This document shows, in pieces, positions 53,600-53,980 of a DNA stretch of 64,000 bases. The stretch is from Escherichia coli (GTDB taxonomy: Bacteria > Pseudomonadota > Gammaproteobacteria > Enterobacterales > Enterobacteriaceae), in NCBI RefSeq assembly GCF_041886205.1, contig NZ_CP169029.1. The stretch is one strand, 5' to 3'. Both the position numbers and the translations under genes were made by a program. Each line of letters starts with the position of its first letter. Position 1 is the first letter of the stretch. The notes beneath the pieces were generated by a model. That model made no database searches. It worked only from the letters and a program-made list of their open reading frames with translations, and was not told where the DNA came from.

Positions 53600-53680
53600 T
53601 GTCGCTTTTTGGTGACATTTAACTCATTGATTTTAATGTCATCTAATAAGTTTATCTTAAGTTGTCTCTTTTTAGCGACA
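53600..53680 (+). promoter_or_regulatory. Two TGTC-N10-GACA sites (GlrR/QseF-type enhancer-binding sites) upstream of the glmY promoter
   Basis: tgtcgctttttggtgaca (53600..53617) and tgtctctttttagcgaca (53663..53680) read directly. Confidence 0.55.
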
Positions 53681-53769
53681 CAGTGGCTGATTTACATTCA
53701 AACAGCGGAGAAGCCATAAACCCCTCAAAGCAGCGTATAATCAGTACGTTACCAAACTATTTTCTTTAT

Positions 53770-53786
53770 TGGCACAGTTACTGCAT
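53770..53786 (+). promoter_or_regulatory. Sigma-54 (-24/-12) promoter of glmY
   Basis: tggcacagttactgcat matches TGGCAC-N5-TTGCW. Confidence 0.7.
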
Positions 53787-53796
53787 AATAGTAAGC

Positions 53797-53980
53797 AGTT
53801 GCTCATTCACCGACTTATGTCAGCCCCTTCGGGACGTGCTACATAAAATTCGAATGACGCACAACAAGGTGCCTGCCGTCCAACTTCTGATATCAGCGTA
53901 GCTATATCAACCATCGGGCGAAACGTCGAGTTAGGCACCGCCTTATTCCATAACAAAGCCGGGTAATTCCCGGCTTTGTT
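53797..53980 (+). ncRNA. glmY: Small RNA GlmY (decoy sRNA in the GlmY/GlmZ/RapZ cascade controlling glmS)
   Basis: Recognised sequence ...ctcattcaccgacttatgtcagccccttcgggacgtgctacataaaattcgaatgacgcac...; ends in hairpin aaagccgggtaattcccggcttt plus U-run; 5' end inferred from promoter spacing. Confidence 0.8.

What the first reader, a model, noticed from the sequence alone, without database searches (positions are those of the whole stretch)
53600..53980. glmY small RNA with sigma-54 promoter and upstream TGTC-N10-GACA activator sites, directly upstream of glrK-glrP-glrR
The 575-bp purL-glrK gap holds no protein gene but has a clear -24/-12 promoter (tggcac-N5-ctgca), two well-spaced TGTC-N10-GACA palindromes upstream, and a terminator hairpin (aaagccgggtaattcccggcttt), bracketing a roughly 184-nt transcript recognised as GlmY. 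The sRNA sits beside the two-component system whose regulator (GlrR, a sigma-54 activator encoded 2.4 kb downstream) drives it, forming a compact sensor-to-sRNA module. An ORF-only view misses it entirely.
Basis: partly seen in the sequence, partly recalled or inferred. Interest (0 to 1): 0.4.

Follow-up and report, generated by a model that had tools for sequence, protein, structure and literature searches.

The report
E. coli glmY small RNA gene

Summary
The finding is real, correctly interpreted and already known. Rfam's GlmY model (RF00128) matches window 53797-53944 (+) at 147.9 bits (gathering score 33, E 5e-33). The curated E. coli K-12 record annotates a 184-nt ncRNA glmY (b4441) in the same purL-glrK gap. 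Aligned to the window, it spans exactly 53797-53980, with two substitutions inside the RNA.

Upstream lie a -24/-12 element (TGGCAC-N5-CTGCA, 53770-53785) and perfect TGTC-N10-GACA palindromes. There are three of these, not the two reported, and they are the only three in the 64 kb. Two IHF-like sites flank the proximal palindrome. A CATAAT sigma-70 -10 box overlaps the -12 element. All of this matches the published architecture.

The terminator hairpin (53952-53980) is supported by covariation. In about 80 other Enterobacterales species the promoter, activator-site spacing, RNA helices and downstream glrK are conserved (glrK 77/77). GlrR and QseG pass NCBIfam equivalog cut-offs.

Transcription, processing and RapZ sequestration were not tested here and rest on the literature. 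Novelty: none.

The parts
49576..53463 (+). purL (phosphoribosylformylglycinamidine synthase), upstream flanking gene
   Evidence: NCBIfam NF003672 2272.9 bits against cut-off 783. RefSeq annotation of a 99.8%-identical strain.
53487..53524 (.). REP-like palindrome after purL. It carries 18 bp that K-12 lacks. It is not part of the glmY unit.
   Evidence: Weak naRNA4/REP-type match on both strands. 18-bp indel against K-12.
53540..53571 (+). Intrinsic terminator-like hairpin plus T-run ending purL. Its tail abuts activator site 1.
   Evidence: Terminator scan.
53567..53584 (.). GlrR activator binding site 1 (distal), TGTCTGTAAATCACGACA, centre -221.5.
   Evidence: Perfect TGTC-N10-GACA. Identical in K-12. 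Found at the equivalent position in most of 83 orthologous loci. Three GlrR sites are published (PMC3045617).
53600..53617 (.). GlrR activator binding site 2, TGTCGCTTTTTGGTGACA, centre -188.5
   Evidence: The half-sites are identical to K-12 while the spacer differs at two bases.
53620..53632 (-). IHF-like site (distal), AATCAATGAGTTA, matching WATCARNNNNTTR
   Evidence: The literature places IHF-like sites on both sides of ABS3 and shows the distal one is essential for the sigma-54 promoter (PMC3045617).
53663..53680 (.). GlrR activator binding site 3 (proximal), TGTCTCTTTTTAGCGACA, centre -125.5
53739..53751 (+). IHF-like site (proximal), AATCAGTACGTTA
   Evidence: PMC3045617.
53770..53785 (+). 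Sigma-54 promoter TGGCAC-N5-CTGCA. GG is at -26/-25 and GC at -14/-13 relative to 53797.
   Evidence: Identical in K-12. A TGGCA[CT]-N5-NTGC[AT] element occurs at -25 to -29 in 82 of 83 orthologous loci.
53784..53789 (+). CATAAT, the -10 hexamer of the published sigma-70 promoter that overlaps the sigma-54 -12 element. The -35 region is poor (TTTCTT).
   Evidence: Sequence. PMC3045617 names CATAAT as the characterised -10. Present at -13..-8 in 30 of 84 loci, the Escherichia/Citrobacter/Klebsiella/Enterobacter-type group. The generic sigma-70 scan does not call it because of the weak -35.
53797..53980 (+). glmY, full-length 184-nt primary transcript
   Evidence: Coordinates transferred from the K-12 ncRNA glmY b4441. 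Fold -62.7 kcal/mol, z = -4.9. 100% identical copies exist in other E. coli, and 5425 of 5426 complete genomes carry it.
53797..53944 (+). Conserved GlmY core. It equals the Rfam match and the published 148-nt processed, active form.
   Evidence: RF00128, 147.9 bits, model positions 1-163 of 163. The 148-nt processed form is described in PMC4152352. Helices are kept with compensatory changes in 85 sequences.
53952..53982 (+). Rho-independent terminator of glmY. The G+C core is GCCGGG/CCCGGC (53958-53974), the extended A/U stem runs to 53952/53980, and the tail is UUUGUUGU.
54039..55466 (+). glrK (= qseE, yfhK) sensor histidine kinase, TTG start
   Evidence: RefSeq name in a 99.8%-identical strain and in K-12. 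It scores below the cut-off of every other named kinase family in the NCBIfam rows shown (best 25 of 81), so the name rests on annotation and synteny.
55631..56344 (+). qseG (yfhG) lipoprotein.
   Evidence: NCBIfam NF007997 359.3 bits against cut-off 234..
56334..57668 (+). glrR (= qseF, yfhA), sigma-54-dependent response regulator
   Evidence: NCBIfam NF011695 equivalog 981.2 bits against cut-off 763.

Best explanation
Window 53797-53980 (+) is the E. coli glmY gene.

Shown here: the sequence matches the GlmY RNA family in both sequence and structure. It sits in the family's defining genomic position. It carries the complete published control region and a covariation-supported terminator.

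Inferred from published work on E. coli K-12, whose sequence is identical at every named motif:
- Phosphorylated GlrR (QseF), made by the glrK-qseG-glrR operon just downstream, binds the three TGTC-N10-GACA sites centred at -221.5, -188.5 and -125.5.
- IHF bends the intervening DNA, and GlrR drives open-complex formation by sigma-54 RNA polymerase at TGGCAC-N5-CTGCA.
- A weak sigma-70 promoter using CATAAT starts at the same nucleotide and gives basal expression.
- The 184-nt transcript ends at the GCCGGG/CCCGGC hairpin and is trimmed at its 3' end to about 148 nt.
- When glucosamine-6-phosphate is scarce, this form accumulates and sequesters the RNase E adaptor RapZ by mimicking its homologue GlmZ.
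- GlmZ then escapes cleavage, base-pairs with glmS mRNA with the help of Hfq, and raises GlmS synthesis.
For: - Rfam RF00128: 147.9 bits against gathering score 33, E 5e-33, full model coverage. It outscored the overlapping match from the same clan.
- K-12 curated ncRNA glmY maps onto 53797-53980. The intergenic region is 97% identical, and every promoter and activator motif is identical.
- Three perfect TGTC-N10-GACA sites are the only ones in 64 kb.
- Two IHF-consensus sites flank the proximal activator site.
- In 83 orthologous loci from other Enterobacterales, the -24/-12 element is present in 82, and at least two activator sites with fixed 33- and 63-bp spacing are present in 82.
- glrK is downstream on the same strand in 77/77 loci and purL upstream in 69/75.
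- RNA helices are kept with compensatory changes, and the terminator hairpin shows strong covariation.
- GlrR and QseG pass NCBIfam equivalog cut-offs.
- Mechanism from the literature: PMC3045617, PMC6075780, PMC4152352.
Against: Nothing contradicts it, but there are limits.
- No expression data exist for this strain, so the start site, 3' processing, GlrR/IHF binding and RapZ sequestration are all transferred from K-12.
- The -24/-12 pattern alone is not rarer than chance in 64 kb.
- The generic scans called neither the sigma-70 promoter nor the glmY terminator.
- Part of the invariance in the cross-species alignment is imposed by the two motifs I used to collect and filter the loci.
- rapZ, glmZ and glmS are outside the window and could not be examined.
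Confidence: 0.97

Rival explanations
1. The region is not an independent sRNA gene but the 5' leader of a glmY-glrK-qseG-glrR operon transcript. Read-through of the imperfect terminator would couple sensor expression to its own output, giving positive autoregulation.
For: Only 58 nt separate the terminator end (53980) from the glrK start (54039). The U-tract is interrupted (UUUGUUGU) and the generic scan does not call a terminator. The abstract of PMC8745638 states that glmY-qseE-qseG-qseF form an operon in Proteus mirabilis.
Against: [quoted passage not shown] PMC3045617 says the two-component system is transcribed independently. The hairpin is under clear selection. Some read-through would in any case add to the sRNA function, not replace it.
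Confidence: 0.05
2. The RNA is GlmZ, the base-pairing homologue, or a GlmY/GlmZ hybrid that activates glmS directly rather than acting as a decoy.
For: GlmY and GlmZ belong to one Rfam clan (CL00011) and share sequence and structure (PMC4152352).
Against: Only the best match of the clan is kept, and that match is GlmY (one lower-scoring overlapping clan match was dropped). The locus has the GlmY-defining purL/glrK synteny. It is 98.9% identical to K-12 glmY. In Escherichia, glmZ has a plain sigma-70 promoter without GlrR sites (PMC3045617).
Confidence: 0.01
3. A small protein is encoded here: the mechanical ORFs 53662-53901 (+, 79 aa, TTG start) or 53807-54037 (-, 76 aa, GTG start).
For: Both ORFs appear in the six-frame list.
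Against: Across species the region varies by indels of 7, 8, 9 and 10 bases inside hairpin loops, so no reading frame is kept, while paired positions co-vary. The + ORF would begin upstream of the promoter. Neither K-12 nor PGAP annotates a CDS here.
Confidence: 0.01

Closest known systems
E. coli K-12 glmY (b4441; formerly sroF/tke1), Rfam RF00128 GlmY_tke1
   Same: Same genomic position and orientation, and the same 184-nt extent. All promoter, activator, IHF-like and terminator motifs are identical. 182 of 184 RNA positions are identical.
   Different: U instead of G at +4 and U instead of A at +54. Both positions are unpaired in the Rfam consensus; +4 U is the Rfam consensus base and could add one U-A pair to stem 1. 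G instead of C at -2. Two spacer substitutions in activator site 2. About half of complete E. coli genomes are within one mismatch of this allele, and exact copies exist, so this is ordinary population variation.
GlmZ (SraJ), Rfam RF00083, same clan CL00011
   Same: Homologous fold. It is also bound by RapZ (PMC4152352).
   Different: GlmZ lies elsewhere in the genome (next to the hemCDXY cluster; PMC3045617). In Escherichia it uses a plain sigma-70 promoter without GlrR sites. It carries the glmS-pairing region that GlmY lacks (PMC4152352, PMC3045617). It is not in this window.
glmY loci of Yersinia, Serratia and Photorhabdus (the 'group I' architecture of Goepel et al. 2011)
   Same: Sigma-54 promoter, three GlrR sites with the same 33/63-bp spacing, and glrK downstream.
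   Different: Those lack the overlapping CATAAT sigma-70 -10, having CATTAT or ATTAAG at that position. They have a longer first hairpin loop and a different 3' end. The window has the Escherichia-type dual promoter.

Membership tests
GlmY sRNA (Rfam RF00128) | Sequence-plus-structure score above the curated gathering threshold, over the full model | tested here: met
   147.9 bits against 33, model positions 1-163 of 163, E 5e-33.
GlmY sRNA (Rfam RF00128) | Scores better as GlmY than as its clan homologue GlmZ | tested here: met
   Clan competition kept GlmY and dropped one lower-scoring overlapping clan match.
GlmY sRNA (Rfam RF00128) | Conserved three-helix architecture maintained by compensatory substitutions | tested here: met
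   RNAalifold on 85 distinct sequences gives 29 pairs, 7 of them with double changes, for example UA/AU 48:35 and CG/AU 49:33. Caveat: several invariant columns were fixed by the motifs used to collect the loci.
glmY locus (Enterobacterales) | Located immediately upstream of, and co-oriented with, glrK(qseE)-qseG-glrR(qseF) | tested here: met
   Window gene order. glrK is downstream in 77/77 orthologous loci. The synteny is stated as conserved in PMC6075780.
glmY locus (Enterobacterales) | Sigma-54 -24/-12 element at the correct distance from the RNA 5' end | tested here: met
   TGGCAC-N5-CTGCA at -27..-12. Conserved in 82/83 loci. Only the sequence was tested, not sigma-54 binding.
glmY locus (Enterobacterales) | Three GlrR binding sites TGTC-N10-GACA more than 100 bp upstream | tested here: met
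   Three perfect sites at -230, -197 and -134 (first base), the only ones in the window. Feature definition from PMC3045617.
glmY locus (Enterobacterales) | IHF-like sites flanking activator site 3 | tested here: met
   WATCARNNNNTTR at 53620-53632 (-) and 53739-53751 (+). Consensus match only.
glmY locus, Escherichia-type | Overlapping sigma-70 promoter with -10 CATAAT | tested here: met
   CATAAT at -13..-8. PMC3045617.
GlmY sRNA (function) | Transcript of 184 nt starting at the annotated +1 and processed to about 148 nt | not testable with these tools
   Transferred from the K-12 annotation and PMC4152352. The Rfam match ends at +148, which is consistent.
GlmY sRNA (function) | Binds and sequesters RapZ, protecting GlmZ, in response to GlcN6P depletion | not testable with these tools
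   Literature only (PMC4152352; PMC7073468 abstract). rapZ, glmZ and glmS are not in the window.
GlrR/QseF sigma-54 response regulator | NCBIfam equivalog score above cut-off | tested here: met
   NF011695, 981.2 bits against 763, full length.
QseG lipoprotein | NCBIfam equivalog score above cut-off | tested here: met
   NF007997, 359.3 bits against 234.
GlrK/QseE histidine kinase | Specific family model above cut-off | tested here: inconclusive
   No GlrK-specific model among the 25 NCBIfam rows shown (of 81 matches). Every family shown scores below its cut-off. The identity rests on RefSeq annotation of near-identical DNA and on synteny.

The most novel reading that the evidence does not exclude
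The most novel reading not excluded concerns the glmY allele of this lineage (U at +4, which can extend stem 1 by one pair; U at +54; G at -2). Together with the interrupted U-tract of the terminator, it might change GlmY stability or allow some read-through into glrK. That would give this strain a feedback between sRNA and sensor that K-12 lacks. Nothing in the data points to this: the terminator and everything from +55 to the glrK start are identical to K-12, and the allele is common in E. coli.
Probability: 0.03. Interest if true: 0.15.

Novelty: already known. Interest (0 to 1): 0.04.

Why it matters
It matters only as a check on the first-stage reader. An ORF-free 575-bp gap was correctly recognised from raw sequence as a characterised regulatory RNA gene with its enhancer-dependent promoter.

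Biologically, the GlmY/GlmZ/RapZ cascade controls GlmS and hence cell-envelope precursor supply, and it feeds into virulence regulation in EHEC. All of that is established, and this locus adds nothing new to it.

Tried and rejected
- The generic sigma-70/terminator scan found no promoter and only the purL terminator. It missed both the published weak sigma-70 promoter (poor -35) and the glmY terminator (U-tract partly inside the extended stem). I therefore tested the hairpin by covariation instead.
- The bare sigma-54 pattern search is not informative on its own: 2 hits against 2.15 expected. The second hit (36581-36596, TTGCAC...) lacks the GG and lies inside rseA, so I discarded it.
- My first attempt to find each orthologue's 3' end by folding overshot by about 50 nt. 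I replaced it with a fixed cut.
- RNAalifold on all 85 sequences did not resolve the variable middle hairpin or the terminator, because these are not alignable across genera. I analysed the terminator in a 30-sequence subset.
- 36 of the 120 genome contigs matches to the 17-base motif lacked the 5' stem motif. 32 came from unrelated, mostly GC-rich genomes with no shared flanks, so they are chance matches. The other four (L023, L052, L070, L094) were GlmY copies that were truncated or variant.
- Small-ORF and GlmZ readings were considered and rejected (see the rival explanations).
- A side look for a GlrR-type promoter upstream of rpoE in the same window gave only weak candidates, and I did not pursue it.

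Full report
OBSERVATION

The interval lies in a gap without a protein gene, between the purL stop (53463) and the TTG start of glrK (54039).

A search of the whole window against Rfam at gathering thresholds returns GlmY_tke1 (RF00128) at 53797-53944 on the + strand. It scores 147.9 bits against a gathering score of 33, E = 5e-33, and covers model positions 1-163 of 163. A more permissive search of the gap alone gives the same hit. It also shows that one lower-scoring overlapping match from the same clan was dropped in its favour.

IDENTITY WITH THE CHARACTERISED GENE

The gap is present in 5425 of 5426 complete E. coli genomes, always chromosomal. PGAP-annotated genomes show no feature there. 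The curated K-12 MG1655 record does annotate 'ncRNA glmY, b4441, small regulatory RNA GlmY', 184 nt, between purL and glrK.

Aligning the window's gap to K-12 gives 97% identity. Within the RNA there are two substitutions:
- +4 is U here and G in K-12. U is the Rfam consensus base.
- +54 is U here and A in K-12.

Both positions are unpaired in the Rfam consensus structure. Exact copies of this allele occur in other E. coli, and 2746 of 5425 genomes are at least 99% identical over the 184 nt. This is ordinary within-species variation.

CONTROL REGION

- Activator sites. TGTC-N10-GACA occurs three times in the 64-kb window, at 53567-53584, 53600-53617 and 53663-53680, against 0.91 expected. All three fall within 114 bp. 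By my own Poisson estimate, the chance of three such sites in a given 250-bp stretch is of the order of 1e-8.
- Sigma-54 element. TGGCAC-N5-CTGCA is at 53770-53785, which puts GG at -26/-25 and GC at -14/-13 from 53797. The pattern alone is no rarer than chance in 64 kb, so its weight comes from position and conservation (see below).
- Sigma-70 -10 box. CATAAT at 53784-53789 (-13 to -8) overlaps the -12 element.
- IHF-like sites. Two matches to the consensus WATCARNNNNTTR lie at 53620-53632 (- strand) and 53739-53751 (+ strand), on either side of the proximal activator site.

Every one of these motifs is identical in K-12. Goepel et al. 2011 (PMC3045617) describe this same arrangement for E. 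coli glmY:
- GlrR binds three TGTCN10GACA motifs more than 100 bp upstream and activates the sigma-54 promoter.
- Two IHF-like sites flank ABS3, and the distal one is essential.
- A sigma-70 promoter, whose -10 CATAAT overlaps the sigma-54 -12 element, can start at the same site.

TERMINATOR

The minimum-free-energy fold of the 184-nt RNA (-62.7 kcal/mol, z = -4.9 against shuffles) ends in a 12-bp stem at 53952-53980, with the G+C core GCCGGG/CCCGGC.

I aligned the 3' ends of 30 relatives that share this architecture (29 distinct sequences). In that alignment 98.4% of cells pair, 9 of 13 pairs show changes on both sides (for example GCCGGG/CCCGGC, GCCAGG/CCTGGC and GGCAGAG/CTCTGCC), no shuffle of 500 reaches these values, and slid registers collapse to 29-53% paired.

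INDEPENDENT COMPARATIVE TEST

A 17-base GlmY-specific motif was scanned against one genome per species, giving 120 loci. Of these, 84 carry the GlmY 5' stem motif at the right distance, and all but one of those records are named as Enterobacterales; the exception, L072, is discussed under things seen in passing.

- Of 83 loci with enough upstream sequence (the window itself counted among them), 82 have a TGGCA[CT]-N5-NTGC[AT] element starting at -25 to -29, and 46 have it at -27 as in the window.
- 82 of 83 have at least two activator sites with at most one mismatch, and 72 have three. The spacing is constant at 33 and 63 bp.
- glrK lies downstream on the same strand in 77 of 77 loci with enough flank. 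purL lies upstream in 69 of 75.
- CATAAT at -13..-8 is found in 30 of 84 loci, the Escherichia/Citrobacter/Klebsiella/Enterobacter-type group. This agrees with the paper.
- RNAalifold on 85 distinct GlmY sequences predicts 29 pairs, 7 of them with compensatory changes.

Caveat: the columns covered by my search and filter motifs are invariant by construction. Indels of 7-10 bases within the loops exclude a conserved reading frame, which disposes of the two mechanical ORFs that overlap the RNA.

NEIGHBOURS

- GlrR (56334-57668) scores 981 bits against its NCBIfam equivalog, cut-off 763.
- QseG (55631-56344) scores 359 bits, cut-off 234.
- PurL scores 2273 bits, cut-off 783.
- GlnB follows.
- The kinase (54039-55466) matches only generic histidine-kinase families, all below their cut-offs. 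Its name therefore rests on RefSeq annotation of near-identical DNA and on synteny.

The only paper in the library containing both glrP and glrK concerns plant lectin receptor genes.

MECHANISM

This section is inferred from the literature and was not tested here.
- The 184-nt GlmY is trimmed at its 3' end to a 148-nt active form (PMC4152352). The Rfam match ends at +148.
- GlmZ then stays intact and, with Hfq, activates glmS translation (PMC7073468 abstract).
- In K-12, read-through from the glmY promoter into qseE is reported as virtually absent, and qseEGF is not autoregulated (PMC6075780). An operon including glmY is reported for Proteus mirabilis (PMC8745638 abstract).
- The window is identical to K-12 from +55 through the glrK start, so I give the read-through rival about 5%.

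VERDICT

The feature is already known in every respect, so interest is low.

THINGS SEEN IN PASSING

These are listed separately in the report. They include other Rfam hits in the window, an 18-bp REP indel after purL, rpoE (the second published GlrR target) lying 18 kb away in the same window, and a genome record named as an alphaproteobacterium that carries the enterobacterial purL-glmY-glrK locus.

Noticed in passing
window 53487-53524: A REP-like palindrome just after purL (GCCCGGATGCGGCATTTACGCCGCATCCGGC). It contains 18 bp that K-12 lacks, and it gives weak naRNA4 matches on both strands.
   Followed up: partly
window 35082-37805 (+), upstream region 34708-35114: The rpoE-rseABC operon lies in the same window, about 18 kb from glmY. 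rpoE is the other published sigma-54/GlrR(QseF) target. Its upstream region has two relaxed TGT-N12-ACA motifs (34714-34731, 34788-34805) but only a poor -24/-12 candidate (35065-35080), and no perfect TGTC-N10-GACA site.
   Followed up: partly
window 37290-38121 (-), 40905-41119 (+), 44532-44596 (-), 10883-11021 (+), 7452-7577 (-), 30781-30823 (+), 15799-15907 (+): Other non-coding features at Rfam gathering level: AsrC (antisense to rseC), rncO, ohsC antitoxin RNA, RyfD, the Phe leader, ES036/CssrF and StyR-44. There is also a complete rrn operon at 14019-19029 with a tRNA at 15646-15718.
   Followed up: no
L072 (NZ_SZPQ01000010.1, 'Martelella alba strain BGMRC 2031'): A genome that NCBI taxonomy files under Alphaproteobacteria carries a typical enterobacterial purL-glmY-glrK locus (PurL 78.6% and GlrK 64.9% identical to the window's proteins). 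The species name or placement looks wrong, or the contig is a contaminant.
   Followed up: partly
L068 (Yersinia pestis) and L082 (Yersinia rohdei): The distance from glmY +1 to the glrK start is about 1.3 kb and 1.9 kb, against 242 bp in Escherichia and 540-660 bp in other Yersinia. This suggests an insertion between the sRNA and the kinase gene.
   Followed up: no
L020 (Arsenophonus endosymbiont of Aleurodicus floccissimus): This is the only GlmY locus of 83 with a degenerate -24 element (TGACAT instead of TGGCAC) and a single recognisable GlrR site. That fits regulatory decay in a reduced endosymbiont genome.
   Followed up: no
window 53464-54060 against E. coli genomes: Only 20 of 5425 complete E. 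coli genomes are at least 99% identical over the whole gap, and most fall at 95-99%. The RNA itself is at least 99% identical in about half. The promoter-distal spacer DNA and the REP element carry most of the variation.
   Followed up: partly
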